This document shows positions 9,587 to 38,689 of a stretch of 64,000 nt of DNA, piece by piece; the first letter of the stretch is position 1; every line of letters begins with the position of its first letter. The stretch comes from a virus: IMG/VR virus record IMGVR_UViG_3300025131_000013, positions 29,476 to 93,475 of that record; one strand, written 5' to 3'. Made by a program: the position numbers and the translations under genes. The notes beneath the pieces were generated by a model, which worked only from the letters and a program-made list of their open reading frames with translations, made no database searches and was not told the origin of the DNA.

Positions 9587-9590
9587 TAAG

Positions 9591-10145
9591 ATGGCGATTA
9601 AAAATCTTGTTCCAAAGGAGCAAGATAAGGTTCCTGTAACTCAACTTCGATGGATGATGGATCTGAGGAATAGGGATCAGGGCGTCCGGGATGCTCTAGG
9701 GATAGAGGGGCAACAGACTTGGGAAGAGCAATTGGCTTGGTACAAGGGTTTCATCTTCGACCATAAATCAGCTATTTATATGATTCACTACGGCAGTAAT
9801 TTTGCCGGATACTTGAACTTTACAGCTCTTGATCTAAAGGGAAGGCACACTGAGATAGGGATTAAGATGACTGAGGCCTACCGGGGACAGGGGATAGGGA
9901 GGCAAGCCTTCGAGTTCTGGTGTGATATGCTTACCAAATACTATAACCTGAATAAGCTCTACCTTTGGGTAAGGGAGCATAATTTACCCGCAATAGGCCT
10001 GTATGAGTCTATGGGTTTTGTTGAAACAGGGCGCCACAAGGCTCACTTTTATGATGATGAATCAGGTCATTGGAGCGATTATATCTTAATGTCTCTGTAC
10101 CATATTCTCTTTACGCCTTCAACTATAGAGAAGAAGGATGGTTGA
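9591..10145 (+). CDS. GNAT N-acetyltransferase (PseH-like)
   Basis: QTWEEQLAWY, EIGI, YRGQGIG (AcCoA motif), NLPAIGLYESMGFVETG. Confidence 0.88.
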   Translation: MAIKNLVPKEQDKVPVTQLRWMMDLRNRDQGVRDALGIEGQQTWEEQLAWYKGFIFDHKSAIYMIHYGSNFAGYLNFTALDLKGRHTEIGIKMTEAYRGQGIGRQAFEFWCDMLTKYYNLNKLYLWVREHNLPAIGLYESMGFVETGRHKAHFYDDESGHWSDYILMSLYHILFTPSTIEKKDG

Positions 10146-17127: not shown

Positions 17128-17885
17128 TGAAAACAGTAGATGTGACATTCCTAGCAGAGCAAAATAAGCTCTCTGGCTCTAAGGCAATCGAAGAGGCCAA
17201 GGTATACAAGAGGTATCCGTGGCCGATAACTGAGATTGTGGATGCCGGGAATTTCAAAGTAGAAGGGCACGCAGAAGATCATTTTTCCTTGAATGATTGG
17301 TTCATCATAACTACGAGGAAATTTAGCACCAAGTTTAGAGTGACTGGGACTCCATCGTTCGCATCAGGAGTGACTAATATACCTTCTGCTGCTCACTCTT
17401 TAGGGACGGCGCAAGATGTCGGAGGCTTCGTAGCCAAGCGTTATGACGTCTCAAGGCAGGTCTTGAAGATAGGGACAATAAGTCAGAGGTTTGAAGGACA
17501 AACTCTGAATAGCTTTAGGACTGGTGCCGCCACTATAGAGATGAACGACAGGGCATATCTAAATCTGTATGACGAGGCAAATCAAGATGGGGTATTCTTC
17601 CAGAGAAGCTGGTCGGATACCATAAGTGTCTCTACGCCTGGTGCCAGCACGACAGTATTTACCTTAGTTACCGGAGGTTTGACGACTAATAAGCTGAGGG
17701 GCTACACCCTACAGCTTTTATCAGGCCCCTACGAAGGCAAAGCCTACCCTATTATAGCAAATGCGGCAGGGACCGTTACGATTCAGGGAGTCGTTAGTAA
17801 TGCTATATCTGGAGATGAGGTTTTGCTTGCTCTTGAGAATCTATTCTATGGCGAAATCTTGGCCGGATTTAAGGGTGCTCTGTAA
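17127..17885 (+). CDS. Tail tip/hub protein, N-terminal part
   Basis: Immediately after TMP; DVSRQVLKIGTISQRFE...GAATIEMND...EILAGFKG resembles the first half of a hub domain. Confidence 0.55.
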   Translation: MKTVDVTFLAEQNKLSGSKAIEEAKVYKRYPWPITEIVDAGNFKVEGHAEDHFSLNDWFIITTRKFSTKFRVTGTPSFASGVTNIPSAAHSLGTAQDVGGFVAKRYDVSRQVLKIGTISQRFEGQTLNSFRTGAATIEMNDRAYLNLYDEANQDGVFFQRSWSDTISVSTPGASTTVFTLVTGGLTTNKLRGYTLQLLSGPYEGKAYPIIANAAGTVTIQGVVSNAISGDEVLLALENLFYGEILAGFKGAL

Positions 17886-25164: not shown

Positions 25165-26084
25165 TGTCGTTTTCAGGGAACGTATTAGGCGGTGTCGGAT
25201 ATCCAAGATTCTATCTTCTATCAGAAGATATGGTATCAAATGGCAGCATGGAGGATGATGATAACTCTGATAATCTGCCTGATGGGTGGACTGCTGGCGG
25301 TGCTGGCTCTATTAATAGGGTAGCGGACACATCCACTATCTTTGGCGATTACGTCATGAACCTTATAGACGCTAGTGTTGGCGCTAATGGTTGGGCTCAA
25401 TCATCTGTCATGGATCTTCCTTCAGGAGAAGATATAAACGGTCACGAGTTACTGGTTTCGATGTGGGTAAAGTTGATTACAGGAACCCCGAATCCTGGCG
25501 GTCTGATCGTCTATGTCTACAATTCTAGTAATATTCTGGTCGGCAACGAAGAAGTGGTAGCCATAATAGGGACTACGTGGCAGCAACTTTGGATCCCTGT
25601 TAGGCCGTTGGTATCACTCACAGGCGATACGGACCTGTACATAACTATTTTGCCAACCAGAGGCGGGGTATCAGAACTAGCCAATTACTACGTAGACAAC
25701 GTCCAGGTTTTTGAAGTGAACGATACGGTGGATATATCTGTCGAGCCGCAAGAGTATCAGGCTCAAGGCTGGGATAAGCAATTACAAACTGGCCGGCAGA
25801 CCCTGATTGATGGCTCCCTGAAAGAGTATGTCCACGGATGGAGATACCGATGCGAGATAGGGTATGATCTGCTAACTGCCGCAGACGAGGTATTGAGGCA
25901 GAGTATAGCGGATCACGATGGCCTTATAGGTTTTATGCCGCACATTGATACTGCCTGGGGCCAAATTTGCCTTTGGAATGGTGCTCTTGATAGAACATAC
26001 TGGCTCAATCGCTTCCTCGGTCATACGTCAGCTATTCCTTTGATTGGAGCAGAGTTGATGAATGAGAAGCCCACAGGAACCTGA
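25164..26084 (+). CDS. Distal-tail-like protein with inserted carbohydrate-binding module
   Basis: MVSNGSMEDD...PDGW...SMWVK...TWQQL...YVDNVQV is CBM4/9-like; C-terminal TLIDGSLKEY..GWRY. Confidence 0.6.
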   Translation: MSFSGNVLGGVGYPRFYLLSEDMVSNGSMEDDDNSDNLPDGWTAGGAGSINRVADTSTIFGDYVMNLIDASVGANGWAQSSVMDLPSGEDINGHELLVSMWVKLITGTPNPGGLIVYVYNSSNILVGNEEVVAIIGTTWQQLWIPVRPLVSLTGDTDLYITILPTRGGVSELANYYVDNVQVFEVNDTVDISVEPQEYQAQGWDKQLQTGRQTLIDGSLKEYVHGWRYRCEIGYDLLTAADEVLRQSIADHDGLIGFMPHIDTAWGQICLWNGALDRTYWLNRFLGHTSAIPLIGAELMNEKPTGT

Positions 26085-26248
26085 TGTCTCATAACCTCAT
26101 TATTTCCAACGGTGTATACCTATTCGCCTACGCTCTGAGTGCTTCTGGGGACTTGCTTCTCAACGTAGGGCCGGAGACTAGATGGAATAGGTCACCAACG
26201 GGGGTAAGGGGGGACTTCCTTTTCCAGCCAAAGACTAAAAGGAATTAG
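26084..26248 (+). CDS. Small hypothetical protein (54 aa, not in ORF track)
   Basis: TGATG overlap with the upstream stop, exactly filling the gap; MSHNLIISNGVYLFAYALSASGDLLLNVGPETRWNRSPTGVRGDFLFQPKTKRN*. Confidence 0.55.
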   Translation: MSHNLIISNGVYLFAYALSASGDLLLNVGPETRWNRSPTGVRGDFLFQPKTKRN

Positions 26249-26254
26249 AATCTA

Positions 26255-27820
26255 ATGGCCCCCGTTAATATTGGTGATTACTCAGCCTCTATAAATCAGG
26301 AGTTTAGAGTATCGGATGTTAGATGCTCTGGAGTTAGTGCTCCTAGTCTCGGACAGAGAGTAAGCGGTGATAGCGTGACTGTCACCTTTACCCTCATGAC
26401 GTATGTCGATGCTGATCTCACCGGATCGGTGATTATCGAGTTTTCGACTGCGGGTGCCGGCGGACCATGGAGTGCCGCAACGATTACTGGTGCTACTACG
26501 GGTTTAACCGTGTCTCAGGACGGCAATACGTATAGCGTGACTTGGGATTCTCTAACTGACGTTGGCTCGAACGTAGATCAGAATAATATCCTGTTTCGCA
26601 TTACAGCTAATGATGGGACGAACAATGATGGTGATGCGGATACTCCTGTCAACTCGTCCTTCTTTACGGTAGACAACCTTCCATCTGCTCCTACAATTAC
26701 TGCCCCGACTTCAGGGTGGTTCCGTAAGGATGATGACTATCCTTCCTTCGCAGTAGAGTTCACTATTCCTACTGATCCCGGCGGCGACAAGCTATGGCCG
26801 GTATTTGAAGCGGATACTTCGCCGAACTTTGATTCTGTAGCCTTCTTCCAGGTGGACAGCAATGACGCAACGAACTATCTGTTCTTTGACGTTGAGGTTA
26901 CTAATCCTCTCAAGCCTATCTCCGGATATTATGTCCAGGATGTCGCAGCAAACGAGGATGGATCGGCAACCACGGTAGATTGGGATTCTTTGTCGGATGC
27001 CTATACTGGTGATGCCCTGCCCACTACGATATTGGATGCCAGAGTCCTTCTGATACAAAAGAAGGATCGGAGGGTATTGCTGACCTCGGTATCGAATACA
27101 CAGATCCAACTAACTGCTTCTGCTGCCGGAGTAGCAACGCCTGAAGTAGACCTCTACATATTCGATGACGTCCAAACAGACTTCTATATAGTATCCGGGT
27201 TGACTGTTCCGAATACTACTTTGACGGCGCAAACATTTGCTTCGATGGGTGAGGACTTCGCCCAGGCAATCCCTAATCCGTTTGGTAGTGCCCCTCGTAT
27301 CTTGATGTGTGATGAAGCAGAGCGACTCTGCTATATGGGGACGATTACTACTACGGATGTAGAACTTGCTAAGTCAGTTGCTGGTCCTACGGGCAACGGA
27401 ACGGTTACGCTATTCATCTTGAAGACAAACTCAGATATCTACCAAGATGATAACTATGCTGTCACGCCTTCAGATCTTACGATCACTCGGTATGACAGCT
27501 TAAGCGATGGGGGCGCACTTCCTACCTCTGTCGGTGGCGCCGTTCCTAGCGTGGTTCCTAACTCAGATCGGGCTGTATACGTAGACAGTCCCGGCTCAGA
27601 AGATTTCCAGATAGCTAAATCTGGTGCCGGGATTCCTACGGACGCGACAGTTGAGATGAATATCTTTACAGAAGAAGGTGCTTCAGGGATCTGGGTAGTT
27701 ATGCCTGCTACTGGAATTGATGATGCGACATTTGAAGGTGGTAACGCCCGTTACAGAGCGCAAGCGGGTGACTTCGACGACAATGTCTGGTATTTTAGAG
27801 CTGCGTTCGGTAACACTTAG
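26255..27820 (+). CDS. Virion protein with Ig/FnIII-like domains and three internal repeats
   Basis: VTWDSLTD...LFRITAND...VDNLPSAPTITAP; three ~85 aa repeats ending in S.AG.....V..(Y/F/N)I(F/L). Confidence 0.65.
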   Translation: MAPVNIGDYSASINQEFRVSDVRCSGVSAPSLGQRVSGDSVTVTFTLMTYVDADLTGSVIIEFSTAGAGGPWSAATITGATTGLTVSQDGNTYSVTWDSLTDVGSNVDQNNILFRITANDGTNNDGDADTPVNSSFFTVDNLPSAPTITAPTSGWFRKDDDYPSFAVEFTIPTDPGGDKLWPVFEADTSPNFDSVAFFQVDSNDATNYLFFDVEVTNPLKPISGYYVQDVAANEDGSATTVDWDSLSDAYTGDALPTTILDARVLLIQKKDRRVLLTSVSNTQIQLTASAAGVATPEVDLYIFDDVQTDFYIVSGLTVPNTTLTAQTFASMGEDFAQAIPNPFGSAPRILMCDEAERLCYMGTITTTDVELAKSVAGPTGNGTVTLFILKTNSDIYQDDNYAVTPSDLTITRYDSLSDGGALPTSVGGAVPSVVPNSDRAVYVDSPGSEDFQIAKSGAGIPTDATVEMNIFTEEGASGIWVVMPATGIDDATFEGGNARYRAQAGDFDDNVWYFRAAFGNT

Positions 27821-27828
27821 AGGGAAAA

Positions 27829-29787
27829 ATGGCCGAGTATAAAGTTCCAGAACTCGCGTATGAGTTTCCTAGCGAGGACATTACCGCTGAGAGCGGATAT
27901 CGTGTCCTTTCTGTTGATCTCAACAACGGTCGGTTTATGTGGGACCTTGAAGTATTCCGGCAGCTTGAGCGGGCTACCTCTTGGTATCAGGAGTTAGGTG
28001 CGTTTCCGACTCACGCCTTGATATTTGTAGATACAACAAGAGGTATTGTTGAGATCTATGATAGAAAGGATAATACGACTTGGGCCACGTTTACAGCGGG
28101 AGCAAATAACTTCCTGCTGAATTCTACTGCTATAAACGACATCGACTTTGTTGATGGTGTGCTAGCGGTGGCGGATGATACGAACGGGCTACAGTTGGTT
28201 GATTTCGTTCGGGACGCAGGATACCGCTATGATACGAATGGCCTATACGTTAAGGTAGGGGACATAGCGGATCGTGACGGTGCCCTCGGTGAGCTTCTGG
28301 TTAATACGATCATCCAGCTTAACCACGATGACGTAACCTCGGTGAGTATGGCCCGAGACCACGACGACCAGTATGTGGAGATGGACATCGGTCGAACTGT
28401 TCCGGATATTTTGGTCACTACGGATGATGAGGTGACTCTCCTTAAAGCGAGAGATCACGCATCGAACGAGCAGGCAGCCTACGATCTGGGCACCGCCTCT
28501 ATAGTAGGATTGTATTGCGTCATCACCCCAGACGGGCACTGCTTTAGCGCATACTCTGATGTTACGAACGATAAGGTGCGGTGGGATAAGACTGCCGGCA
28601 TTATCGCTGATACGTGGCCTGCGGCAAACGATACGATTCATGGCGGTGGAACTACGGGAGGTGGTATTAATCCTGTATCATCTGGAGCCGTGATCTCAAT
28701 GATTGGCGCCATACCAGGTGTGTCAGCGGCTGATGGTGCTTCGCCAGTGTTGGCAATTGGAACAGACGAGGGGCTGACGCTAAAGCATCTGGATGATACG
28801 AACGAGTCTGATGGTATCACTTTCTTTTTCGACAATGTGGCGGCCCATCCCCCGTTGGCTGGGAAAGCAACACTCAAGGACTCGTGGTGGCTAGGATCGG
28901 TTGCCGGCCTACAAGGAAAGACCCTTACGAATGGCGGAACTGTAACCTTTGCTGCCGCCGTTACGGGTAACGGTGCGGTATTTACGGAGGGTGGAGCGAC
29001 CGTCCTGTCCAGGACTGGTGACGCCGATCTAGATACGGGCACCGATGACTTCGCTATAGGGTTCTACTTCAAATCGACGAATGCGGCAAATCCAGGATCT
29101 TCGGTCAACCTCCTTAACCTTGAGGATGCCGGCGGTCAGGATATGCTGGAGATTTTCGCCAATACGTCCGGTCAGATCGTTGCTCGTATTACGGATGACT
29201 CCGGTGCTACTTGGGATACGATAACGACAACGGCTGACTACTACAACGCTTTGTGGCATTCGCTGATGCTGGTCCGGGACAACAGCACTCTCTATCTTTA
29301 TATAGATGGAAAGCAGGCAGGGACCGTAGCGGTGACGAATGCTGCTACTGCTCTCGACTTCGCTGAGATCTACGTAGGGAATGATAAGGCGGCAGGCACC
29401 GGATTCGGCGGGACGATGGATGATCTGTTCTTCTGGCAGCTGACGGATGCTACGAACGCAGCGAGACACTTCTCAAGGTTCTGGCACCGGAGAATGCAGT
29501 CAGGACTCAATAACGCTTCTATCGGGACCGAGCTAGATTTGGCTCCGGTCACTTGGGTTTCCTCAGACCATGAAGGCGAGCACTTCATGTTCGGTGACGC
29601 GAATGACATGTATGTGATTGATCGTTTCGGGATCATCATCCAGAACACTGCTACTCCTGGAGGGACTATCCAAGACGGAGATATATGGACCCTGCCTGGA
29701 GCAGCAGGATTTGCCTACGCTCTTGGGACTACTACTACTGTTAATGTCCAGCAGGTGAATGTCGACCTCGCTGATATCCTGCTCTAA
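27829..29787 (+). CDS. LamG/concanavalin-like adhesin with beta-propeller segments
   Basis: DFAIGFYFKS...ALWHSLMLVRDNSTLYLYIDG...FGGTMDDL is a LamG-like jelly-roll. Confidence 0.8.
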   Translation: MAEYKVPELAYEFPSEDITAESGYRVLSVDLNNGRFMWDLEVFRQLERATSWYQELGAFPTHALIFVDTTRGIVEIYDRKDNTTWATFTAGANNFLLNSTAINDIDFVDGVLAVADDTNGLQLVDFVRDAGYRYDTNGLYVKVGDIADRDGALGELLVNTIIQLNHDDVTSVSMARDHDDQYVEMDIGRTVPDILVTTDDEVTLLKARDHASNEQAAYDLGTASIVGLYCVITPDGHCFSAYSDVTNDKVRWDKTAGIIADTWPAANDTIHGGGTTGGGINPVSSGAVISMIGAIPGVSAADGASPVLAIGTDEGLTLKHLDDTNESDGITFFFDNVAAHPPLAGKATLKDSWWLGSVAGLQGKTLTNGGTVTFAAAVTGNGAVFTEGGATVLSRTGDADLDTGTDDFAIGFYFKSTNAANPGSSVNLLNLEDAGGQDMLEIFANTSGQIVARITDDSGATWDTITTTADYYNALWHSLMLVRDNSTLYLYIDGKQAGTVAVTNAATALDFAEIYVGNDKAAGTGFGGTMDDLFFWQLTDATNAARHFSRFWHRRMQSGLNNASIGTELDLAPVTWVSSDHEGEHFMFGDANDMYVIDRFGIIIQNTATPGGTIQDGDIWTLPGAAGFAYALGTTTTVNVQQVNVDLADILL

Positions 29788-29796
29788 GGAAACGTA

Positions 29797-31392
29797 ATGA
29801 GAACCCTTTCTAAATTTGGATTATCAGATGACTCCATAGCATCGGGCATCTTATCAGGCATTCCTGCTGGGGACTACACCGATCCTACTCTATATGGAAC
29901 GACTAGGATATGGTGGGATGCCACCAATACCTTGTTCCGATCTAAGATAGGGTCAGACCCTGCCTCCGAGACTGATGGCGCTCCAGAGTCTCATCTTACT
30001 CAGGTCTACGGTGATGAGTCCGATGGAGCCGTGGCTAATGCTACGGACGTAGATATTGAGGCTACTACGATTGCTCAATCTGGAGTCGTTACTCCAGCTT
30101 CTAATCGGATCTGGCGAGCTACAGGGAATGTTACCCTAACTCAGACGGTTGATGTAGTCCAACAGGACGGTCAAGCTCGTAGTCCTTTCCCGTTGAGACA
30201 AGGATCTCCAGGAATCGAGCTTGGCGCCATTATGGCGGCTATCGGATCGAAGGGGATGCCGGTTCCAATAAGGCCTGGTGGAGATGGAACAGGGCTTATT
30301 GGCGGTATTATCCAGATTATCTCTGGAGGCGATGTATCGGTTGGCGCAGCGATGTCTGCTTTAGGGACTAACGCTTCAGGAGATGGCGGTGGAGGCGGTG
30401 GAATAGTAATTATAGTTGCCGCTGGAACTATTTCTGGCGCTAGTGCTATTGACGTATCAGCGGGGGATGGACACGCTACTGCGGCTGCCCAAGGAGGCGG
30501 TGGAGGCTACTCAGGCGGATGGGGAGGTCACGGTGGTTGGGCGGGAGCGGGTGGAGGCGATGCGTATATAGGTAGGACGCCTGGAGCATCTGGAGCAGGG
30601 TATAAGGTTGCTCAAGCTGGCGGAGGTGGATACCAGGGTGGCGGTGGAGGCGGGTGTATAGATGCGGTTGGAGTTACTACTGGATCCACAGCTGGTGGCG
30701 CTGGAGGTGATGGAACGGCTTTCTTGAACTTTGATCAGCAGAAAGAAGATTTGACTGATCACTGGACTGACGCAGTAGAGGTTTGGAATGCTGCTGTGGC
30801 TGGTTCCAACTCGGGATGTTGTGCCGGTGGTGCAGCTGGAGTAAATGGAGGCGGTGGAGGTGGAGGCGGTGGTCGACCGGGATCTGCTGGAGCCGCAGGA
30901 GCAAATGGTGGAGCAGGAGGTGACGCGGGTTCGGGTGGTGGAGCAGGAGGCGCGTGTAATATCACTGGAACTGCTGGCAATGGAGGTGCTGGAGCCGCAG
31001 GATCTAACTACGCATACTCTTTGACTAATAAGGACGTGTTTACTGGGATGCCTGGTGGCCAGGGAGGCGGTGGAGGCGGTGGCTTAGGCAAACTTCAGAA
31101 CGGCTGTTCTGATGGTTCTGCTGGAGCAGGCGGTGCTGGAGGTGCGTCACCTGGACCATTCGTAGGTAGTATGGGTAATGGATCTGGCGGGGCAGGCGGG
31201 ACAGGAGAGACTCCTAGTGGTGGTGATGGTGATGGCGGTGACGGAGGCGATGGAGGAAATGGTGGCGGTGGCGCTGGCCTAGTTATCCTTGTTGCCCCTA
31301 CTATTACCTACAATGGAACTGTAACCGGAAAGCTCGTGAAGATAGCAGGCACAGACGCTGAGAACATCCTTAGAAGTGTATTCGGTAGCTAA
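29797..31392 (+). CDS. Glycine-rich tail fibre/adhesin (polyglycine-II type)
   Basis: Long GGGGG/GGAGG runs; GGGGGIVIIVA and GGGAGLVILVA motifs; ends ...VFGS. Confidence 0.75.
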   Translation: MRTLSKFGLSDDSIASGILSGIPAGDYTDPTLYGTTRIWWDATNTLFRSKIGSDPASETDGAPESHLTQVYGDESDGAVANATDVDIEATTIAQSGVVTPASNRIWRATGNVTLTQTVDVVQQDGQARSPFPLRQGSPGIELGAIMAAIGSKGMPVPIRPGGDGTGLIGGIIQIISGGDVSVGAAMSALGTNASGDGGGGGGIVIIVAAGTISGASAIDVSAGDGHATAAAQGGGGGYSGGWGGHGGWAGAGGGDAYIGRTPGASGAGYKVAQAGGGGYQGGGGGGCIDAVGVTTGSTAGGAGGDGTAFLNFDQQKEDLTDHWTDAVEVWNAAVAGSNSGCCAGGAAGVNGGGGGGGGGRPGSAGAAGANGGAGGDAGSGGGAGGACNITGTAGNGGAGAAGSNYAYSLTNKDVFTGMPGGQGGGGGGGLGKLQNGCSDGSAGAGGAGGASPGPFVGSMGNGSGGAGGTGETPSGGDGDGGDGGDGGNGGGGAGLVILVAPTITYNGTVTGKLVKIAGTDAENILRSVFGS

Positions 31393-31404
31393 AGAGAGGA
31401 CGAT

Positions 31405-31857
31405 ATGCCAACGCCTGAAGAACTAGCTGATCAGATAGCCAAGCTTGACGCTGATAGAGCTATACTGGAAAAGAAGCTCGTTGAAGATCCTATCAACGAG
31501 ATTACTTTCAAATCAGCGGTCGATATAGTTGCTGCTGATCCCCTAATGTCGTCAATCGGAGTGGCGGTAGTTAAGTCAGAGATACACCCTCAATGGTGTA
31601 GTCTCGACTTTCCTGTTGGCGCTGCTTCAGGATTCCAAGCGTTGGCTATGAGGCAGATGATACAGCTTATGCTGTCTCTCGGTGCTGAGCCTGGATTCAA
31701 AGTGGTGGAGAACGGAGCCAAGAGTAGGCTGCCCTACAGGGTATACGTGGCTATTACGAATATCAACGAGTGTATTGAGGCTGTGAGGGTTATGGCTTTG
31801 ACTGACTCCCAGAGAGTGTTGGAGTATGCCGTTGAGGCAGACGAGGCAAGTATATGA
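31405..31857 (+). CDS. Hypothetical protein, paralog of 35659-36081
   Basis: SD GAGGA; coiled-coil N-terminus then PQWCSLDFPV..ASGF...GAEP. Confidence 0.65.
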   Translation: MPTPEELADQIAKLDADRAILEKKLVEDPINEITFKSAVDIVAADPLMSSIGVAVVKSEIHPQWCSLDFPVGAASGFQALAMRQMIQLMLSLGAEPGFKVVENGAKSRLPYRVYVAITNINECIEAVRVMALTDSQRVLEYAVEADEASI

Positions 31858-32489
31858 TCTCAGGTGATATCAAATCCAACGGCTGCGCTCTGCTCCCAGG
31901 AGTAGTGACTGGACCGTCGACTAAGATTATGATCGAGACTCTCAACGGGATGCTAGAAACCCTGGAAGAGATGTCTAGGGTTAATGGCTTGATAGTCAGA
32001 GAGACATTCTCAGACTTCTTCAATCTCCCACAGATAACGGATGTAGTCAAGGACGTTCTTGGGACTGATAGTCCTATCCTTTTGGCTACGAGAGGGAATG
32101 CTAGTGTCTCTAGTGATCCCGGTGATCCGCCTCATTCTAACAATTATGAGTGGGGTAATATTGCCCCAGGAATCTCGATAGTCACGGCCTGTCTCTATCT
32201 GGATAAGATAGACGATACGTCAGGCACGTTTGCTTACTGTCCAGGATCCCATCTGAAGTATTACCCTCCTTATACGGAAGTCCCGACCCAAGCAGATATA
32301 GACGCGGGGACATATGAGGAAGTCTACGCAGAGGCGGGTGACGTTCTCTTTAGGATACCGGAAGTCTGGCATGCTGTAAGGCCGATAGGAAACCCAAGAA
32401 GATATATCACAGGCTTCTGGGTGAATCCTGATAACGCGGGCAAGTTCCTCTCAGAGCGGGTGGAGCGATTTTTGGAGGTTCGGGCCTAA
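31854..32489 (+). CDS. PhyH-like Fe(II)/2-oxoglutarate dioxygenase
   Basis: VTACLYLD...GTFAYCPGSH...AEAGDVLF..EVWHAVRP...R; first metal motif reads H-S-N. Confidence 0.82.
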   Translation: MISGDIKSNGCALLPGVVTGPSTKIMIETLNGMLETLEEMSRVNGLIVRETFSDFFNLPQITDVVKDVLGTDSPILLATRGNASVSSDPGDPPHSNNYEWGNIAPGISIVTACLYLDKIDDTSGTFAYCPGSHLKYYPPYTEVPTQADIDAGTYEEVYAEAGDVLFRIPEVWHAVRPIGNPRRYITGFWVNPDNAGKFLSERVERFLEVRA

Positions 32490-32710
32490 TGAGAACTATA
32501 TCGAGATTCTCTGTCACCGCTCCATTACCGGGTTCAGTTCCTGACGGGACGTTCACTGATCCGTTTATCTACGGGACTACATACGTCTGGCATGACTCGG
32601 TGAACAATGTGATGAGGAAGCAACTTACTACCCCGGTTACTGAGACTGAGGGAGAGATTCTGATGGAGGCTGAGGATTCACCACCAACAGCAGGTGTTAG
32701 TGATTTCTAG
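32489..32710 (+). CDS. Small protein homologous to the N-terminus of the Gly-rich fibre
   Basis: MRTISRFS..VPDGTFTDPFIYGTTYVWHD..P.TETEG versus MRTLSKFG..IPAGDYTDPTLYGTTRIWWD..PASETDG. Confidence 0.75.
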   Translation: MRTISRFSVTAPLPGSVPDGTFTDPFIYGTTYVWHDSVNNVMRKQLTTPVTETEGEILMEAEDSPPTAGVSDF

Positions 32711-32720
32711 GAGGATGGGG

Positions 32721-35642
32721 ATGAGAAAGTATTTCAGTCAAGTAGCTTTAGCACTACTTTTATTAGTAGGGGTGACGTTTGCTCAGACTCACCACTCGAA
32801 CAAGAAGATATTGTTTCATAAGGCTATTGGTGTCTTGCCTGATAGCCTTATTATGGTGAATCCTGATACCACGATCACCGGATTCAGCGCAAACATCGTC
32901 AAGCGTTACAGCCTGAACGACCCTGCCGTGATGTGGGACCGTGATGCGTTTCAGGCGAAGGTCAGCGTGTCGAGCATCGGCACACGCGGCGATACGACTG
33001 ATGCGTGGCCGACGAACTTTGCTATTGTATCAGCACAAGAGTCTGCCACAGACTCGCTTGGTATCATTAACACGGACACAGGCGAACAGTGGATGTGGTT
33101 TGTCGCGGGGGCGTCGTATATGCTTGGCAATGGCGCATCTGCCGTTTTTGCCAACAGCGTGTTCTTGGATGGAGTCCTCTACGTTGCCGTCGATGGGACA
33201 GGATTATTTGTCATCGACTTTCTTAGAGAGACGAGTGATTACGTTCTGGACCAAAACTCCTACAGGTTCAAGGGGAACATTTCCGAGAGGAACACAGGCG
33301 CAGGAATCATTCAGTATGCGAAGTATCCGCCCATCACGAACGCGGATGTTAATGTCGTCGACGCGATCCGCGATCCAGAGGGCGGCATGGACGAGTTCGG
33401 GCGACCGTTGCACTATTGGGTGGTGGGAACTGATGGCGGTATCTCCGAATACAATCCCATCGACAACGCCATTTGGGACTCTGGGGGGACTGACGATGGC
33501 GATATTGTTAGGCTGATGGACCGGGGGGATGTGTGGTGGGCGTATGAAGATCCAACACGATACTGGGTGTATAGAACCGCTCCCATTCAGTCGCACTACA
33601 AAAATGGGTTTGGCCCACCGGGGGGTGGCGAGTATGCAGACGCGGGGGTTGGTGGAACAGATATTCCGTGGACAACATCAGCAGTTGTTACGAGCTTTAC
33701 CGTTCCAGTTGGTTCTGTGACGCACGATGGCGCACCTGTTGTAATTATTGGGTCGGACGAGGGCTTGATGATTTCGCAAAACAAGCCATTCGTATTGCCC
33801 TCTGGGTCCGCAAACAGTTCCCTCACCCACACCATCGATGCCACGCAGAACGCGCCACTGTGGTCAGGCGTGGTTGTGGACTCGTATCCACTTGAAGATG
33901 CAACGGGGATGTTTGGTGAGGATCTGACTGACGAGGGCGTGACCTTCTCGTCGGCTGTAATCGGTAATGGCGTAGTCCTTGATGGCACCAACATTATGTA
34001 TCGTAACAACGATGCGACCTACACGCCAACAGGGACGATGGGGACCGATCTGTATATGACTGTCGCGTTTTGGGTGAAATCAAGCTACGCAGACAGTTGG
34101 GATCCACTCCTTGCTTTGACAGAAGGCACGACCCCCGGTAACGATTGGTTCAGTATTTTCCCGTGGGCTGGTGTCGTCTACGTGCGAATAACTTCCAATG
34201 CCAACTCAACTGCCGAGACAGTAGATACACAGATTGATGTTCTCGATAATACGTGGCACCATATTGCCTTCACTATTGGTGCAACTGAGTTACGGTGTTA
34301 TTTGGACGGGATTCTTATAGATACGGATGCGTCACTTACCTCATTCTCAGGGGTTCCAGCGTGGGATACATTCACAGTTGGCGACCTACACGATGGGTTC
34401 ACTGGTGCTGGTTCGATGTTTATAGGCACACTCGACCAAATCCTCCTGACGTATCGGGAGCTTACAGCCAAAGAGGTCAGGCACCTACATCAGCGCGGTC
34501 GTGACGCGCTACAACATAACGCCATCGGTGACGATGCCCTCGTAGGCGCATCGGTGCAAGACGTGGAAGCGGCAGAGGACGGTTCGATTTGGGTTCTCGC
34601 AGGAGCATCGACTTCAGCCGACTCAACGTTGCACCGCTTAACGCCGACAGGCATCCCGACAGACACGCTCACAGCAAGCGGTCTGGTTGACATAGACGTG
34701 TGGAACGTGAACGGAGCCAAGCCAGACAGCTCCATCGAATCCTACGGCGTGGCGATGGCATTGGGCACTGGCGGTCTGCGGCTGATACAGCCCAATCCGG
34801 TGGTTGCTGACAGGTGGGCGGGATACAACAAGAGCGGCGTTCACGGCGCGTGGTATGGAGGCGGGATTGCGGCGTGGGCAAGGTATCAGTTGAACGGGAC
34901 CGCCAGAGTAGATTCTGCCGGAGCCTACGGTTCGTATTACAACGTCCAAGACGCGCTTGACGCGGGTGGCGCAAACGTTCGTGTCGATGTTGGGGTTGGG
35001 ACATACCCCCCGTTTGATTATTCAGCGGATGGCCAACAGGTATGGGGGGTTTCGTGGGGGGCTGTCATTGACGGTGCCAACACTGATGATGCCGTAGAGT
35101 TTGGTGGTGTCTATGACAATTGCGTTCTCGCCAACATCACAGCGAAGACCACTTCCAGTGGCCCTGGCTATGATGCGGTTGATCTGTCACAGTCGGGATC
35201 GGAATACTTCTTGGCGTGGCGGGTTCGCGTCCCTGACTCCGACAACTACGGATTCAATATTTCGGTTTCGTGTCCGTATATCAGGATCATAGACTGCCAT
35301 GTCGACGATGCCGATGTGTTTGGGATATACATTGCTGGCTCGGCGTATTTTATGATCAAGGGCAATCACATCGGAACCAGTGGTGGAGGTCCACCAAATG
35401 AAGGCATCTACATTGATCATACTGCCGCCAATGGGTTCGTGTCAGAGAACAATGTTGTGATGGCAGGGTCTCCAGAGATACATATCTTGGGTAACAAGAT
35501 CGGCGTTTCTGATAATTGGGTAGACGGCACGATCACCCTTCACACGAACAGCAATGACTGCCTGACCTCTGGAAATATTGTTAACACGTCGATCACGAAT
35601 AGTGGAACATCTAACACGGTTGGAGACGTTGAAGTCTTCTAA
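32721..35642 (+). CDS. Signal-peptide-bearing LamG + parallel beta-helix (pectate-lyase-like) protein
   Basis: SD AGGAGG; MRKYFSQVALALLLLVGVTFA|Q. LamG (VAFWVKS..TWHHIAFT..CYLDG..GTLDQI). YYNVQDALDA..VGVGTY begins a beta-helix. Paralog of 27829-29787. Confidence 0.8.
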   Translation: MRKYFSQVALALLLLVGVTFAQTHHSNKKILFHKAIGVLPDSLIMVNPDTTITGFSANIVKRYSLNDPAVMWDRDAFQAKVSVSSIGTRGDTTDAWPTNFAIVSAQESATDSLGIINTDTGEQWMWFVAGASYMLGNGASAVFANSVFLDGVLYVAVDGTGLFVIDFLRETSDYVLDQNSYRFKGNISERNTGAGIIQYAKYPPITNADVNVVDAIRDPEGGMDEFGRPLHYWVVGTDGGISEYNPIDNAIWDSGGTDDGDIVRLMDRGDVWWAYEDPTRYWVYRTAPIQSHYKNGFGPPGGGEYADAGVGGTDIPWTTSAVVTSFTVPVGSVTHDGAPVVIIGSDEGLMISQNKPFVLPSGSANSSLTHTIDATQNAPLWSGVVVDSYPLEDATGMFGEDLTDEGVTFSSAVIGNGVVLDGTNIMYRNNDATYTPTGTMGTDLYMTVAFWVKSSYADSWDPLLALTEGTTPGNDWFSIFPWAGVVYVRITSNANSTAETVDTQIDVLDNTWHHIAFTIGATELRCYLDGILIDTDASLTSFSGVPAWDTFTVGDLHDGFTGAGSMFIGTLDQILLTYRELTAKEVRHLHQRGRDALQHNAIGDDALVGASVQDVEAAEDGSIWVLAGASTSADSTLHRLTPTGIPTDTLTASGLVDIDVWNVNGAKPDSSIESYGVAMALGTGGLRLIQPNPVVADRWAGYNKSGVHGAWYGGGIAAWARYQLNGTARVDSAGAYGSYYNVQDALDAGGANVRVDVGVGTYPPFDYSADGQQVWGVSWGAVIDGANTDDAVEFGGVYDNCVLANITAKTTSSGPGYDAVDLSQSGSEYFLAWRVRVPDSDNYGFNISVSCPYIRIIDCHVDDADVFGIYIAGSAYFMIKGNHIGTSGGGPPNEGIYIDHTAANGFVSENNVVMAGSPEIHILGNKIGVSDNWVDGTITLHTNSNDCLTSGNIVNTSITNSGTSNTVGDVEVF

Positions 35643-35658
35643 AAATGGAGGATACACG

Positions 35659-36081
35659 ATGCGATTTATTACCACAGCAATCGCGACACTGGTGCTTACG
35701 GGCGCGGTGTTCGCACAAGACTCAGTAGATCCAGAGATTTCGGTATTACAAGCTAAGATCGACAGCATCCGCGAAGTGCGTAATCTTGCCGAGCGCGAGG
35801 CGACATTGGCGTGGGCCGACTCCGTTGCAGTTGCCAATTCATTGCAAGTAACAGGCGTGTCGTTCAAGGTGGACAGTCGCGACCCGCAGTGGATTATGGT
35901 AGACGTTCCCCTGTCCACGTCCACGGGTTTTGAGTTCGCTTTCTGGCTTGCCAAGTTAGCCGAAGCGAAGAACGAATACGGAGCCAAGCCGTCAGGCACG
36001 ATGGGCTGCGTCAGGGTGCGGAAGGACAGGGCAATCAAGTTTCTTGAGAGCACCAAGAACGATCTGGAAATAGGGGGATAG
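35659..36081 (+). CDS. Signal-peptide-bearing hypothetical protein, paralog of 31405-31857
   Basis: SD GGAGGA; MRFITTAIATLVLTGAVFA|Q; PQWIMVDVPL..STGF...GAKP. Confidence 0.75.
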   Translation: MRFITTAIATLVLTGAVFAQDSVDPEISVLQAKIDSIREVRNLAEREATLAWADSVAVANSLQVTGVSFKVDSRDPQWIMVDVPLSTSTGFEFAFWLAKLAEAKNEYGAKPSGTMGCVRVRKDRAIKFLESTKNDLEIGG

Positions 36082-36252
36082 ACGATGGGTGACAGGTTGC
36101 GAACCCCTTATAAGGAGACAGGGCGAGGCGTTTTTTTTGAAATGGGTTGGCGTAAATATGTTTTGATTTCAGTCAACGCTTGATTTTGTTTCTAGTGTTT
36201 TGGAAGTTTGGAAAACACCCAACAGTGTAACACTCATCAAGGAGGCAGTTTA

Positions 36253-36639
36253 ATGGAACCATTCGCAGGTGGGGAACTCGCAACTTTGACTGCTGGTGCG
36301 ATTTTCACCAGACTTGGTATCATCTTCGCTTTGGCGTTTGCCTTGGCGTTTGTTGTAGAGAGTGCTCTGGATGGCATCTTCACATATCGTCGGTTCAAGT
36401 CCTTTTTTGATGCTGGATACGGAGTCAAATACCCGATAGCTGTGCTCTGCTCCTACCTTGTATGTAGTGGGGTGGGAGTAGATTTAATTGTGATGCTGAC
36501 GACCGGGAATTTGATTCCTTCTTTGACGGTCCACTTTACTCCTGGCCTACTTTTGATGGCCTTTTTTGTCGCCAGAGGCAGTAAGTATGTTGCGACACGT
36601 TTCGGCGAACTGAAGCAGCAGGTAGAAAAATTCTCGTAA
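36253..36639 (+). CDS. Holin-like 3-TM membrane protein
   Basis: SD AAGGAGG; three hydrophobic segments; GLLLMAFFVARGSKYV and a charged C-terminus. Confidence 0.6.
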   Translation: MEPFAGGELATLTAGAIFTRLGIIFALAFALAFVVESALDGIFTYRRFKSFFDAGYGVKYPIAVLCSYLVCSGVGVDLIVMLTTGNLIPSLTVHFTPGLLLMAFFVARGSKYVATRFGELKQQVEKFS

Positions 36640-36643
36640 GTCC

Positions 36644-36661
36644 AATTACGCAGAATGTATA
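36644..36661 (+). promoter_or_regulatory. Putative phage promoter motif, copy 1
   Basis: AATTACGCAGAATGTATA is near-identical to 54698-54716. Confidence 0.5.
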
Positions 36662-36702
36662 GGTAGGCGTCCGATTCGTCGTCGGACGTTGTAGTCATCG
36701 TC

Positions 36703-36745
36703 AAGCGGGGCAGGTTTCGTCACCTGTCCCGCTTTCTTTTTCTTT
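36703..36745 (+). terminator. Strong intrinsic terminator ending the structural region
   Basis: AAGCGGGGCAGGT-TTCGTC-ACCTGTCCCGCTT followed by TCTTTTTCTTT. Confidence 0.85.
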
Positions 36746-36829
36746 AGCGACACGCCTGTGAACATCGTATACTATACTAGTCCGGTAGGCTATCGGGCAA
36801 CGCCTCTTTGTAGGCCATTCTAACCAGTA

Positions 36830-38689
36830 TTGAATGAAAGGAAGGATAGCTTGATAACCGTAGGCACTCATCACAAGGATGACTCCCTCCTAGTGATTGA
36901 TATTAAGGATGCTGCGGATTTTGATACAGCGGTATATATAATGCGGAACAGGGTTCCCGGTGCTCAATTTGAGAAGGGAATCAAACGCTGGACAATCCCT
37001 GTAGCAACCCTTGAAGATATTCCCCCGTATTACGACACTACCTATGGCAAAGAGATAGTGGCGCTTGAGGCAAGCGCGCTCAAGAGATTTGAGCGGCAAT
37101 TTGCTGGTAAGAACATAGCTATAGAGGTAAAATCCGGTCATGAGTTTGATCTTGGTCTTAACGGTCGCCTCAAAACAGAAGATGAATATGGCAGCGATAT
37201 CACAATGAGGCCGTATCAAACCGTAGGTGCGAAGTTCTTCGATGTTACAGGCAAAGCCTTGAATGGGGATACGGTTGGTCTGGGTAAGTCAATCCAAGCA
37301 GTTGCTGCCTCTCAGATGAGGTTTGAGAAAGGTGAGGCAGATTGCTTTCTCCTTATTATACCGCCATCTTTAACTGAGAAGTGGGTCCAGGAGATTGAGA
37401 AGTTCACCCATTCTGCAGTTCATCGCCTTACTCGGAATGAGTTGCTAAAGAAGAACCCCCTCAGCAGATATCGCAAGAAGTATAAGGCAGGATACTACCT
37501 GATATTGTCCTATTCTATGACTTTCAGGTATGTAGATCGTATACTTAAGGATATAGAGGGTGATGGTGATTTTTCGGCTGGAGCCATAGTTGATGAAGTT
37601 CAGTATATAAAAAATTATGGAGCCAAGAGAACTAAAGCAACTAAGCAAATCACCAATGCCTGTAAATACGTATACGGGTTATCCGCTACATATCTTGAAA
37701 CCTCGGTGACTAACATTCATTCAATTTTTGATGGGTTGAATCCTGGGGTCTTTCGGATGAGTGAGTTTAAGTTCAAGGAGCGGTATGCGGAGACCTCGTA
37801 TTGGGGCCAGACTACCGGATATAAACACGGGGATGAAATTAAAAAGCGATTGGAACCTTGGGTGATTAGAAGGCATTCCGAGGATGTCTCAGATCAGATG
37901 CCTTCTAGGCAAGAGACTACTTACTGGATGGATCTTAACGCAAGGCAAGCCGCCTTCTATCGGGATGTATTAGAGCAGGTTACAGACAAGATTAATGACG
38001 CAAAGAGAGAGGGCCAGCTTCAAGTAGCCACTGCTCTTTCCCTCACTATGTATTTGCGCCAGGCGTGCCTCAATACGGTGATAATGGGGCATAAAGAACC
38101 AGTAGACAGTAAGTTTGATACCCTGCTTGAGCTGATTAATGATACAGAGAAGAAGGATAAGCTGGTAGTGTTTTGTTGGTTTGCTCAAGGTGTTAGGGCT
38201 TTGGGTAAATCTCTTGATGCGGCAGGTATAAGTAATACTGCTATTTGGGCAGGCAACGCTAAGATTAAAGATAGAGTTCAGATCATCAAAGAGTTTGGGG
38301 AGTCTGATAAGAAAGTTCTTGTATCGTCAGATATCCTTAGAGAAGGGCATGATGTTGTTGTGGCTCAGCACGTAATTAACTACGACATAATGTGGAACCC
38401 GTCGAATATGGAGCAGAGGGCTGGTCGAGTCCACAGGCTGTCCCAGAAAGCATCTACGGTATTTGTTAATACAATCCTCTCAAGGAATACGGTCGAGCAG
38501 TATATGTTTGATCGGATGTCTCAGTATAAGGCTATGGGCCACGACATTATGGATGATAAGCGGACGTTTAGGAAGATAAGTGTCAAGGAGATTGTTAAGG
38601 CACTTCAATTTAAACCTGAAGGAGGGAGTAGTGGCGGCTCAAGCGGATTCAAAGTCGACTTCAGCAAAAAAGGCAAAAGCAAAAAGTAA
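36830..38689 (+). CDS. SNF2-family helicase
   Basis: MRPYQ, GDTVGLGKS, VDEVQ, GLSAT, YDIMWNPSNMEQRAGRVHR. Confidence 0.93.
   Translation: MNERKDSLITVGTHHKDDSLLVIDIKDAADFDTAVYIMRNRVPGAQFEKGIKRWTIPVATLEDIPPYYDTTYGKEIVALEASALKRFERQFAGKNIAIEVKSGHEFDLGLNGRLKTEDEYGSDITMRPYQTVGAKFFDVTGKALNGDTVGLGKSIQAVAASQMRFEKGEADCFLLIIPPSLTEKWVQEIEKFTHSAVHRLTRNELLKKNPLSRYRKKYKAGYYLILSYSMTFRYVDRILKDIEGDGDFSAGAIVDEVQYIKNYGAKRTKATKQITNACKYVYGLSATYLETSVTNIHSIFDGLNPGVFRMSEFKFKERYAETSYWGQTTGYKHGDEIKKRLEPWVIRRHSEDVSDQMPSRQETTYWMDLNARQAAFYRDVLEQVTDKINDAKREGQLQVATALSLTMYLRQACLNTVIMGHKEPVDSKFDTLLELINDTEKKDKLVVFCWFAQGVRALGKSLDAAGISNTAIWAGNAKIKDRVQIIKEFGESDKKVLVSSDILREGHDVVVAQHVINYDIMWNPSNMEQRAGRVHRLSQKASTVFVNTILSRNTVEQYMFDRMSQYKAMGHDIMDDKRTFRKISVKEIVKALQFKPEGGSSGGSSGFKVDFSKKGKSKK

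What the first reader, a model, noticed from the sequence alone, without database searches (positions are those of the whole stretch)
27829..36081. Duplicated adhesin module whose second copy is routed for secretion
Seen: three paralog pairs. 27829 (LamG) ~ 32721 (e.g. WATFTAGANNFL..FVDGVLAVADDTNGLQLVDFVRD versus WMWFVAGASYML..FLDGVLYVAVDGTGLFVIDFLRE; IGTDEGL versus IGSDEGL). 31405 ~ 35659 (PQW..D.P...GF...GA.P). The N-terminus of 29797 ~ the whole of 32489. In the second set, the LamG/beta-helix protein and its partner both begin with Sec-type signal peptides (MRKYFSQVALALLLLVGVTFA|Q; MRFITTAIATLVLTGAVFA|Q), which the first set lacks. Tailed virions assemble in the cytoplasm, so exported versions of tail-adhesin homologs are unexpected. 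Inference: either periplasm-folded appendages that dock on virions at lysis (perhaps via the small 32489 adaptor), secreted receptor-masking decoys for superinfection exclusion, or an exported depolymerase aiding release.
Basis: partly seen in the sequence, partly recalled or inferred. Interest (0 to 1): 0.78.

Follow-up and report, generated by a model that had tools for sequence, protein, structure and literature searches.

The report
Phage tail-fibre cassette with export signals
An uncultured 93-kb tailed phage carries two versions of a tail-fibre gene set, and in the second the large sugar-binding protein and its small partner both start with bacterial secretion signals, a trait shared by dozens of related phage lineages, so these fibre-type proteins are probably made outside the cytoplasm where tailed virus particles are built.

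Summary
All three paralog pairs are significant (E = 7e-30, 3e-6, 1e-13). Of about 111 ORFs in the phage, only 32721 and 35659 have canonical Sec/SPI signal peptides (MRK.../TFA|Q; MR.../VFA|Q), each behind a strong Shine-Dalgarno site.

It is not a recent duplication. Set 2 is a mobile two-gene cassette: a signal-peptide (SP) beta-propeller/LamG/beta-helix protein plus an SP partner. I found it in four other phage contigs, and it shares 87-96% DNA patches with one of them.

The signal is family-wide. 39 of 47 long (beta-helix) homolog clusters carry an SP and 0 of 37 short forms do (p = 3e-16). 24 of the 39 have Gln at +1, as do all 7 SP-bearing partners.

SP-less phages encode the same parts as three SP-less proteins. 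Two phages (this one and L012) place a stand-alone, SP-less fibre N-terminal module just upstream of the SP protein. One SP-bearing homolog has a fibre shaft 79% identical to that of an SP-less fibre.

Best reading (about 0.42): a tail-fibre module switched to the periplasm, which joins virions at lysis, possibly through the 73-aa product of 32489. Close rival (about 0.35): a non-virion enzyme or lectin that destroys or masks the receptor. Export and cleavage are inferred, not shown. This scan has noted SP-bearing phage fibres on other DNA before. I found no published description.

The parts
27829..29787 (+). Set 1 'A1': SP-less short form (652 aa). Beta-propeller with inserted LamG; no N-module and no beta-helix.
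   Evidence: Pfam Laminin_G_3 E=8.8e-15. BLASTP against P0006 E=7e-30. Belongs to the SP-less short class, 0 of 37 with an SP.
29797..31392 (+). Set 1 'B1': about 60-aa N-terminal fibre module plus a Gly-rich repetitive body (531 aa).
   Evidence: Translation. N-module homologous to 32489 and to the N-terminus of the SP-less fibre P0063. No Pfam or PHROG hit.
31405..31857 (+). Set 1 'C1': SP-less small partner (150 aa).
   Evidence: BLASTP against the 35659 product E=3e-6. Aligns from the mature start of the SP-bearing partners.
31854..32489 (+). PhyH-like 2OG/Fe(II) dioxygenase (211 aa) between the two sets. Its start and stop overlap both neighbouring genes.
   Evidence: Pfam PF05721 E=3.6e-9. 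Coordinates.
32489..32710 (+). Stand-alone fibre N-terminal module (73 aa, no SP). Candidate cytoplasmic docking adaptor, or a stub left by recombination.
   Evidence: E=1e-13 against the B1 N-terminus. E=2e-9 against the N-terminus of the SP-less fused protein P0063. Analogous stand-alone N-module in L012 at 6444-6770.
32721..32783 (+). Predicted Sec/SPI signal peptide of the long form (MRKYFSQVALALLLLVGVTFA|Q).
   Evidence: The AF2 model has helix 2-19 followed by a low-confidence linker. SP present in 39 of 47 long-form clusters.
32721..35642 (+). Set 2 'A2': SP-bearing long form (973 aa). Seven-bladed beta-propeller (aa about 47-697) with LamG inserted (aa about 400-600), a disordered linker, and a right-handed beta-helix (aa about 727-973).
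   Evidence: Pfam Laminin_G_3 E=1.8e-18. AF2 pLDDT 79. VIA Z about 25 to WD40 propellers over 47-694. Beta_helix and NosD Pfam hits in 10 and 6 of 37 homologs. Profile hits to pectinesterase, NosD and alginate lyase structures.
35659..35715 (+). Predicted Sec/SPI signal peptide of the partner (MRFITTAIATLVLTGAVFA|Q).
   Evidence: A-Q is invariant in all 7 SP-bearing orthologs while the hydrophobic core varies.
35659..36081 (+). Set 2 'C2': SP-bearing small partner (140 aa). Long helix plus a small alpha/beta domain.
   Evidence: Orthologs always sit directly after the SP long form: L003 12772-13191, L007 10690-11097, L012 9504-9914. AF2 pLDDT 73; no fold match above Z 6.4.
36253..36639 (+). 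Membrane protein (128 aa), the last gene of the late operon. Possibly lysis-related.
   Evidence: Hydrophobic N-terminal half. No Pfam hit. Small membrane proteins also follow the cassette in L003, L007 and L012.
36703..36734 (+). Strong intrinsic-terminator-like hairpin that ends the tail/fibre operon.
   Evidence: 13-bp stem with 8 GC pairs and a T-run. It is the strongest such site in 26000-37500; weaker terminator-like matches inside 27829-36081 are in line with the shuffled expectation.

Best explanation
Genes 32489, 32721 and 35659 form a tail-fibre module that has been moved to another cell compartment.

The large protein has a 7-bladed beta-propeller with an inserted LamG lectin domain and a C-terminal carbohydrate-type right-handed beta-helix. 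It and its dedicated small partner are made late, from the tail operon. Both are sent through the Sec translocon and cut by signal peptidase I, exposing an N-terminal Gln. The 73-aa fibre N-module (32489) has no signal and stays in the cytoplasm.

I think the exported fibre most likely matures in the periplasm and is added to otherwise finished virions when the holin opens the inner membrane. It would dock through the N-module protein, or, in relatives, through an N-terminal module kept directly behind the signal peptide. The phage's first set (27829, 29797, 31405) is the ordinary cytoplasmic version of the same kit.

Shown: the paralogy, the SP-like sequences, their family-wide conservation and coupling to the beta-helix form, the conserved two-gene cassette, and the split N-module in two phages.
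Inferred: export, cleavage, periplasmic residence, and docking at lysis.
For: 1. Only these two of about 111 ORFs have canonical SPs, each at an SD-preceded ATG.
2. The SP is tied to the long form across the family: 39 of 47 long against 0 of 37 short clusters (Fisher p=3e-16). 24 of the 39 have small-x-small|Q, and so do all 7 SP-bearing partners. Hydrophobic-core sequences diverge while the A|Q site is invariant.
3. Large protein and partner switch together. SP plus SP occurs in G000, L003, L007 and L012. In L011 the propeller/LamG protein, a separate beta-helix protein and the partner all lack an SP.
4. Near-complete genomes carry one version or the other. G001 (100% complete) and G002 (77%) have only the SP form. 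G005 (92%) has only the SP-less form.
5. A stand-alone SP-less N-module lies directly upstream of the SP protein in G000 and in L012. The two are of different N-module types, and each type is fused to SP-less bodies in other phages.
6. SP-bearing homologs keep fibre shafts. Residues 184-274 of P0009 are 79% identical (E=2e-34) to the shaft of the SP-less fibre P0072. N-terminal extension lengths are alike in both classes.
7. The cassette lies inside the tightly packed late tail operon, with no clear promoter or strong terminator of its own.
8. No T9SS C-terminal domain was detected, so the periplasm is the likely destination.
Against: - I found no published precedent for a virion part of a tailed phage that matures in the periplasm.
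- G000 already has an SP-less set that could supply its fibres, so set 2 may do something else.
- P0006 itself has only about 13 residues between the cleavage site and the propeller, and no docking module of its own.
- Binding of the 32489 product to P0006 was not tested.
- The N-module ORFs could be stubs left by recombination.
- SP-bearing members have no excess of cysteines, so one obvious benefit of export, disulfide formation, is not supported.
- Signal-peptide calls rest on my heuristic, not on SignalP or experiment.
- The host is unknown. Strong SD use does not fit classical Bacteroidia, although the Gln+1 pattern points to that phylum or its relatives.
Confidence: 0.42

Rival explanations
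1. The pair is exported but never becomes part of the virion. In the periplasm or envelope of the infected cell, the propeller/LamG/beta-helix protein, helped by its partner, binds or cuts the surface polysaccharide that the phage uses as receptor. This would block superinfection, keep progeny from sticking to debris, or loosen capsule or EPS for release.
For: - G000 has a separate SP-less set available for the virion.
- The beta-helix has conserved Asp residues (D841 100%, D865 97%). Its profile matches pectinesterase, NosD and alginate lyase structures.
- Bacteria have periplasmic beta-helix depolymerases: VexL (signal peptide; PMC6003464) and the tailspike-like WceF (Tat signal; PMC7949094).
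- The cassette sits beside lysis-type membrane genes in G000, L003, L007 and L012.
- It fits the textbook view that tailed virions are completed in the cytoplasm.
Against: - A free enzyme has no use for fibre shafts or N-terminal fibre modules. Yet these are kept behind the SP, and one is 79% identical to the shaft of an SP-less fibre.
- G001 (complete) and G002 carry the SP form as their only family member, in the fibre position.
- The cassette is not a separate transcription unit of the moron type.
- No enzymatic activity is shown.
Confidence: 0.35
2. The hydrophobic N-termini are not cleaved export signals. They are signal-anchors or structural segments that tether the proteins to the inner membrane or bury them in the tail, so the proteins stay accessible to cytoplasmic assembly.
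For: - Export and cleavage are not demonstrated.
- My SP call is heuristic.
- Predicted SPs on phage structural proteins can be false positives, as noted for capsid proteins in PMC10367356.
Against: - The n-region charge, the short (12-15 residue) hydrophobic core and the -3/-1 small residues are conserved while the sequence is not.
- The A|Q junction is invariant in 7 of 7 SP-bearing partners and Gln+1 is present in 24 of 39 long forms. That pattern is expected only if signal peptidase cuts there.
- SP-less relatives begin exactly at the predicted mature start.
Confidence: 0.1
3. Set 2 is a host-derived secreted carbohydrate-active enzyme gene pair, captured by the phage as an auxiliary metabolic or lysogenic-conversion cargo. 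Its SP is simply inherited from the bacterial donor.
For: - LamG, beta-propeller and beta-helix domains with an SP are typical of secreted bacterial CAZymes.
- Two related contigs are temperate, with an integrase close to the cassette.
- GC content of 28-35.6 kb is raised to 0.50-0.58, against about 0.46-0.48 in the flanking DNA.
Against: - Two pattern scans of 185,579 species genomes found no cellular homolog.
- All five contexts recovered are phage contigs.
- The body is homologous along its whole length to SP-less fibre-region proteins that carry fibre N-modules.
- It is embedded in the late operon.
Confidence: 0.05

Closest known systems
Modular phage tail-fibre / receptor-binding cassettes with a downstream assembly partner (such as lambda Stf-Tfa or T4 gp37-gp38; from general knowledge)
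   Same: A large distal fibre-type protein with exchangeable N-terminal docking modules and shafts. A small dedicated gene follows directly downstream. The position is at the end of the late tail operon, next to lysis genes. Recombination between phages is mosaic.
   Different: Both proteins carry Sec/SPI signal peptides. There is no sequence or fold match to Tfa/gp38-type chaperones. The body is a propeller with an inserted LamG domain followed by a single-chain-type beta-helix, not a classical trimeric fibre tip.
Bacterial periplasmic beta-helix glycan depolymerases: VexL (PMC6003464) and tailspike-like WceF (PMC7949094)
   Same: Exported right-handed beta-helix proteins that act on surface polysaccharides from the periplasmic side. 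WceF has a phage-tailspike-like fold.
   Different: Those are chromosomal genes within polysaccharide synthesis loci, and WceF uses Tat. Here the genes are phage-encoded, lie in a tail operon, are fused to a propeller/LamG body and come with a co-exported partner. No activity is known.
Phage-encoded proteins of unknown function that obey the 'Q-rule' for signal peptides, in Porphyromonas gingivalis phages (PMC10367356), and the Bacteroidetes Q-rule itself (PMC5837995)
   Same: SPI signal peptides whose cleavage exposes Gln. Both G000 proteins, 24 of 39 long homologs and 7 of 7 SP-bearing partners fit this.
   Different: The P. gingivalis phage proteins were not described as fibre homologs. The G000 host is unknown, and G000 uses strong Shine-Dalgarno sites, which are unusual for Bacteroidia.
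Envelope proteins encoded within or beside phage tail-fibre regions (lambda Lom and Bor, T5 Llp; from general knowledge)
   Same: Signal-bearing phage proteins encoded in or next to tail genes that act in the host envelope. Llp blocks the receptor.
   Different: Those proteins are not homologs of the phage's own fibre proteins. Lom and Bor are prophage-expressed accessory genes, whereas this cassette is an integral late-operon pair.

Membership tests
Sec/SPI (type I) signal peptide substrates | Positively charged n-region, an uncharged hydrophobic core of about 7-15 residues, and small residues at -3 and -1 | tested here: met
   MRK-YFSQ-VALALLLLVGV-TFA|Q and MR-FITTAIATLVLTGA-VFA|Q. No lipobox Cys and no twin-Arg motif.
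Sec/SPI (type I) signal peptide substrates | The signal is conserved as a feature, not as a sequence, in orthologs | tested here: met
   39 of 47 long-form clusters and all 7 SP-bearing partner orthologs. The hydrophobic cores differ while the cleavage motif is kept.
Sec/SPI (type I) signal peptide substrates | Demonstrated export and cleavage, or a trained predictor such as SignalP | not testable with these tools
   No SignalP and no experiment was available. Only my own hydropathy and charge heuristic was used.
Bacteroidetes 'Q-rule' exported proteins | [quoted passage not shown] | tested here: met
   Both G000 proteins, 24 of 39 SP-bearing long forms and 7 of 7 SP-bearing partners. The rule is defined in PMC5837995.
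Bacteroidetes 'Q-rule' exported proteins | The host belongs to Bacteroidota or another high-Q lineage with a glutaminyl cyclase | tested here: inconclusive
   The host is unknown. Strong AGGAGG/GGAGG sites precede most G000 genes and genes in L003 and L007. From general knowledge this is atypical for Bacteroidia. High Q-values also occur in Ignavibacterium and some Chlorobi.
Phage tail fibre / receptor-binding protein | Encoded in the tail module downstream of the tape measure and distal tail genes | tested here: met
   Tape measure protein at 13672-17127 and an S74-chaperone fibre at 17885-20203. The operon terminator is at 36703.
Phage tail fibre / receptor-binding protein | Sequence membership in an annotated fibre family | tested here: not met
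   None of the seven proteins has a PHROG hit. tblastn found no match in 50,697 GenBank phage records.
Phage tail fibre / receptor-binding protein | N-terminal virion-docking module and/or fibre shaft | tested here: inconclusive
   P0006 has neither. The N-module is the separate 32489 ORF. Relatives keep shafts behind the SP, and P0009 is 79% identical to the SP-less P0072 over 91 aa.
Phage tail fibre / receptor-binding protein | Physical presence in the virion | not testable with these tools
   Requires virion proteomics or immuno-EM.
Laminin_G_3 / concanavalin-A-like lectin domain (PF13385) | Pfam match above the gathering score | tested here: met
   P0006 67.5 bits and P0001 55.6 bits, against a cut-off of 27.6. 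35 of 37 long homologs match.
Right-handed parallel beta-helix (PF13229 / NosD PF05048) | Pfam or structural match of the C-terminal domain | tested here: inconclusive
   P0006 alone has no Pfam hit at E<=0.1. However, 10 and 6 of 37 homologs match, the family profile hits 8tne (E=3e-7) and 7o0y (E=2.5e-4), and AF2 models stacked short strands over 727-973.
T9SS cargo (Bacteroidota outer-membrane secretion) | C-terminal Por secretion domain | tested here: not met
   No such Pfam family appeared among the hits for the 37 long forms.
Moron / lysogenic-conversion cassette | Own promoter and terminator, transcribed independently of late genes | tested here: not met
   Gene gaps within 27829-36081 are 8-16 nt or overlapping. 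The only strong terminator is at 36703.
Tail-fibre assembly chaperone (Tfa/gp38-like), for the small partner | Family or fold match | tested here: inconclusive
   No Pfam or PHROG hit. The best structural Z is 6.4, which is within background.

The most novel reading that the evidence does not exclude
A widespread group of uncultured tailed phages, probably infecting Bacteroidota-like diderm hosts, builds the outermost receptor-binding part of the tail in the periplasm. The fibre and its helper are Sec-exported, trimmed to an N-terminal Gln or pyroGlu, and attached to cytoplasmically assembled virions only in the seconds between holin triggering and outer-membrane rupture. In split versions such as G000 and L012, a small cytoplasmic N-module protein pre-installed on the tail serves as the socket. 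This would be a two-compartment assembly pathway that has not been described for Caudoviricetes.
Probability: 0.35. Interest if true: 0.92.

Novelty: new variant of a known kind. Interest (0 to 1): 0.74.

Why it matters
Tailed-phage assembly is taught as a purely cytoplasmic process. A large, conserved class of fibre-type proteins that carry working secretion signals would mean one of two things. Either virions are finished outside the cytoplasm, or phages routinely export copies of their own receptor-binding machinery to remodel the host envelope.

Both readings bear on how host range is predicted from genomes and on how fibre genes are annotated. These proteins currently hit no phage family. 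Both also bear on how receptor-binding proteins from uncultured phages should be expressed for use, which might need a periplasmic route. The conserved Gln+1 signal may also serve as a host-lineage marker for viral contigs.

Tried and rejected
- **Complex prediction** of P0006 residues 600-973 with the mature partner gave no verdict (score 0.00). It counts neither way.
- **Export for disulfide formation:** rejected. The shared core of SP-bearing members has slightly fewer Cys than that of SP-less ones (0.46 against 0.63 per 100 aa) and no conserved Cys column.
- **+1 frameshift fusing 32489 to the 32694 frame** (overlap 32664-32710): I saw no slippery site, and the product would bury the hydrophobic segment internally. 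Dropped.
- **Sialidase-like catalytic propeller,** suggested by Foldseek hits to trans-sialidase: on a second look the propeller is a generic 7-bladed WD40-like fold (Z about 25). No catalytic assignment was made.
- **C-terminal aromatic residue as an outer-membrane-protein beta-signal:** it follows the beta-helix family, including SP-less members, not the SP. Dropped.
- **Searches that found nothing:**
  - tblastn of five family members against GenBank phages
  - megablast of the region
  - two genome-contig scans
  - one viral scan
  - a word-index search for longer homologs of 32489
  - PHROGs on long N-terminal extensions
- **BLASTP of P0072 against P0090** showed no significant similarity of their N-terminal extensions beyond a short motif. 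That motif is therefore only a weak argument.
- **Spanin or lipoprotein scan of G000** found no credible candidate, so the envelope type of the G000 host is not settled. Only L007 shows a spanin-like gene.

Full report
**Setting.** The window is bases 29476-93475 of a 93,475-bp IMG/VR virus record that CheckV rates 100% complete. Nearly all genes lie on the + strand. A tape measure gene (13672-17127) and a fibre with an S74 chaperone domain (17885-20203) mark a long-tailed phage. The finding lies at the end of this late tail operon. Genes from 27829 to 36081 are separated by 8-16 nt or overlap. The only strong terminator-like hairpin is at 36703-36734, after a small membrane-protein gene.

**Observation.** All three paralog pairs are significant:
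- 27829 against 32721: E=7e-30, 28% identity over about 620 aa.
- 31405 against 35659: E=3e-6.
- The N-terminus of 29797 against 32489: E=1e-13.

Both large proteins contain Laminin_G_3. The two starts are ATG 32721 and ATG 35659, each behind AGGAGG or GGAGG. In a hydropathy and charge scan of about 111 ORFs of the whole genome, only these two have a K/R n-region, an uncharged hydrophobic core and a small-x-small|Q site. SignalP was not available, so export is inferred.

**What the proteins are.** An AlphaFold2 model of the 973-aa protein has pLDDT 79. It shows:
- an N-terminal helix (the signal peptide) and a floppy linker;
- a 7-bladed WD40-like beta-propeller over residues about 47-697 (VIA Z about 25, about 285 residues aligned), with the LamG domain inserted in it;
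- a disordered linker, then a right-handed beta-helix over residues 727-973.

The beta-helix is confirmed at family level. Pfam Beta_helix and NosD match 10 and 6 of 37 homologs. The family profile hits pectinesterase 8tne, NosD 7o0y and alginate lyase 7o7a. Set 1's 27829 protein is the same propeller/LamG body without signal peptide or beta-helix.

The small partner is modelled as a long helix plus a small alpha/beta domain, with no informative fold match.

**The signal is a family trait.** A profile search of 1.84 billion representative proteins found about 84 non-redundant full-body homolog clusters. I sorted them with a script.
- Of 47 long forms (with beta-helix), 39 have a canonical SP.
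- Of 37 short forms, none has one (Fisher p=3e-16).
- 24 of the 39 show small-x-small|Q.

All seven SP-bearing partner orthologs have an invariant A|Q junction while their hydrophobic cores differ. That pattern is what selection for signal-peptidase cleavage would produce. It matches the Q-rule of Bacteroidetes and a few relatives (PMC5837995). Q-rule proteins of unknown function were reported in P. gingivalis phages (PMC10367356). The strong Shine-Dalgarno use in G000, L003 and L007 leaves the host lineage open.

**A mobile cassette, not a duplication.** The pair of SP long form plus SP partner occurs in L003, L007 and L012. L006 has the SP long form at a contig end.
- L003 belongs to G001, a complete 42.8-kb phage with different head genes.
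- L007 is high-GC, with a spanin-like lipoprotein and an integrase nearby.
- L012 and L006 were recovered.

G000's set 2 shares 87-96% identical DNA patches with G001, and set 1 shares none. In L011 (G005, 92% complete) the same kit exists without any signal, as three proteins: the propeller/LamG body, a separate beta-helix protein and a partner. G001 and G002 have only the SP version, G005 has only the SP-less version, and G000 has both. The large protein and its partner therefore switch compartment together, which argues that they work together. I could not confirm contact: the complex prediction gave no verdict.

**Link to the virion.** Three observations bear on this.
- The 73-aa product of 32489 is a fibre N-terminal module. 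It heads the Gly-rich protein 29797 and, in another phage, an SP-less propeller/LamG protein (P0063, E=2e-9).
- L012 repeats the architecture with a different N-module: a stand-alone 108-aa 'MANTYPFTGPGTRW...' module, then the SP long form, then the SP partner. That module is fused to SP-less bodies in at least seven other clusters.
- Other SP-bearing members keep long fibre shafts right behind the signal. Part of P0009's shaft is 79% identical to the shaft of the SP-less fibre P0072 (E=2e-34). N-terminal extension lengths are similar in both classes.

A free periplasmic enzyme would not need shafts or docking modules.

**Interpretation.** I regard export of the pair as likely (about 0.85). 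What happens next is open.

I slightly favour (0.42) a fibre that matures in the periplasm and joins virions once the holin opens the inner membrane. In G000 it would dock through the 32489 protein.

The close rival (0.35) is a non-virion enzyme or lectin that destroys or masks the receptor. It would be comparable to the bacterial periplasmic beta-helix depolymerases VexL and WceF.

Less likely are uncleaved anchors (0.10) and a captured bacterial CAZyme pair (0.05). For the last, two scans of species genomes found no cellular homolog.

A disulfide rationale for export is not supported.

**Prior knowledge.** Three literature searches turned up no description of Sec-exported tail fibres in tailed phages. 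No family member occurs in 50,697 GenBank phage records. Earlier AI notes of this scan report SP-bearing fibre genes in other uncultured phages. They are leads, not evidence, but they show the pattern recurs on other DNA.

Noticed in passing
window 31854-32489: A PhyH-like 2OG/Fe(II) dioxygenase gene (Pfam PF05721, E=3.6e-9) sits between the two fibre sets, and its start and stop overlap both neighbours. It could hydroxylate a fibre protein, for example the Gly-rich 29797 product. It is absent from the other cassettes I saw.
   Followed up: no
window 29797-31392: A 531-aa protein with a fibre N-module followed by long poly-Gly/Ala/Ser tracts. It causes a GC-skew spike at 30.2-31.2 kb and has no family hit. 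In set 1 it occupies the place that the beta-helix takes in other kits.
   Followed up: partly
window 32865-33101, 34503-34810, 36003-36087: Patches of 87%, 93% and 96% DNA identity to an otherwise unrelated 42.8-kb phage (L003/G001). They indicate recent recombination of the SP cassette between co-occurring phages.
   Followed up: yes
window 36253-36734: A 128-aa membrane protein follows a 171-nt gap and is followed by the strongest terminator-like hairpin in the region. It may be a holin-type gene closing the late operon. It has no Pfam hit.
   Followed up: partly
L007 6066-6671: A unimolecular-spanin-like protein (lipobox LSIGC, coiled coil, C-terminal membrane helix) lies just upstream of that phage's SP cassette. 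It implies a diderm host for that relative.
   Followed up: no
L011 / G005 contig ends (43139-44248 and 59-613): The SP-less short form spans the two ends of the contig, so the record is a circularly permuted, near-complete genome.
   Followed up: partly
window 1787-10145: A cluster of glycosyltransferase genes and a DegT aminotransferase gene lies between the head and head-tail genes. I did not examine it further.
   Followed up: no
32489 product and L012 6444-6770 product, C-termini: Both stand-alone N-module proteins end in ...S-x-F (GVSDF and AGPSF). With only two cases, this may be chance or a docking motif.
   Followed up: no
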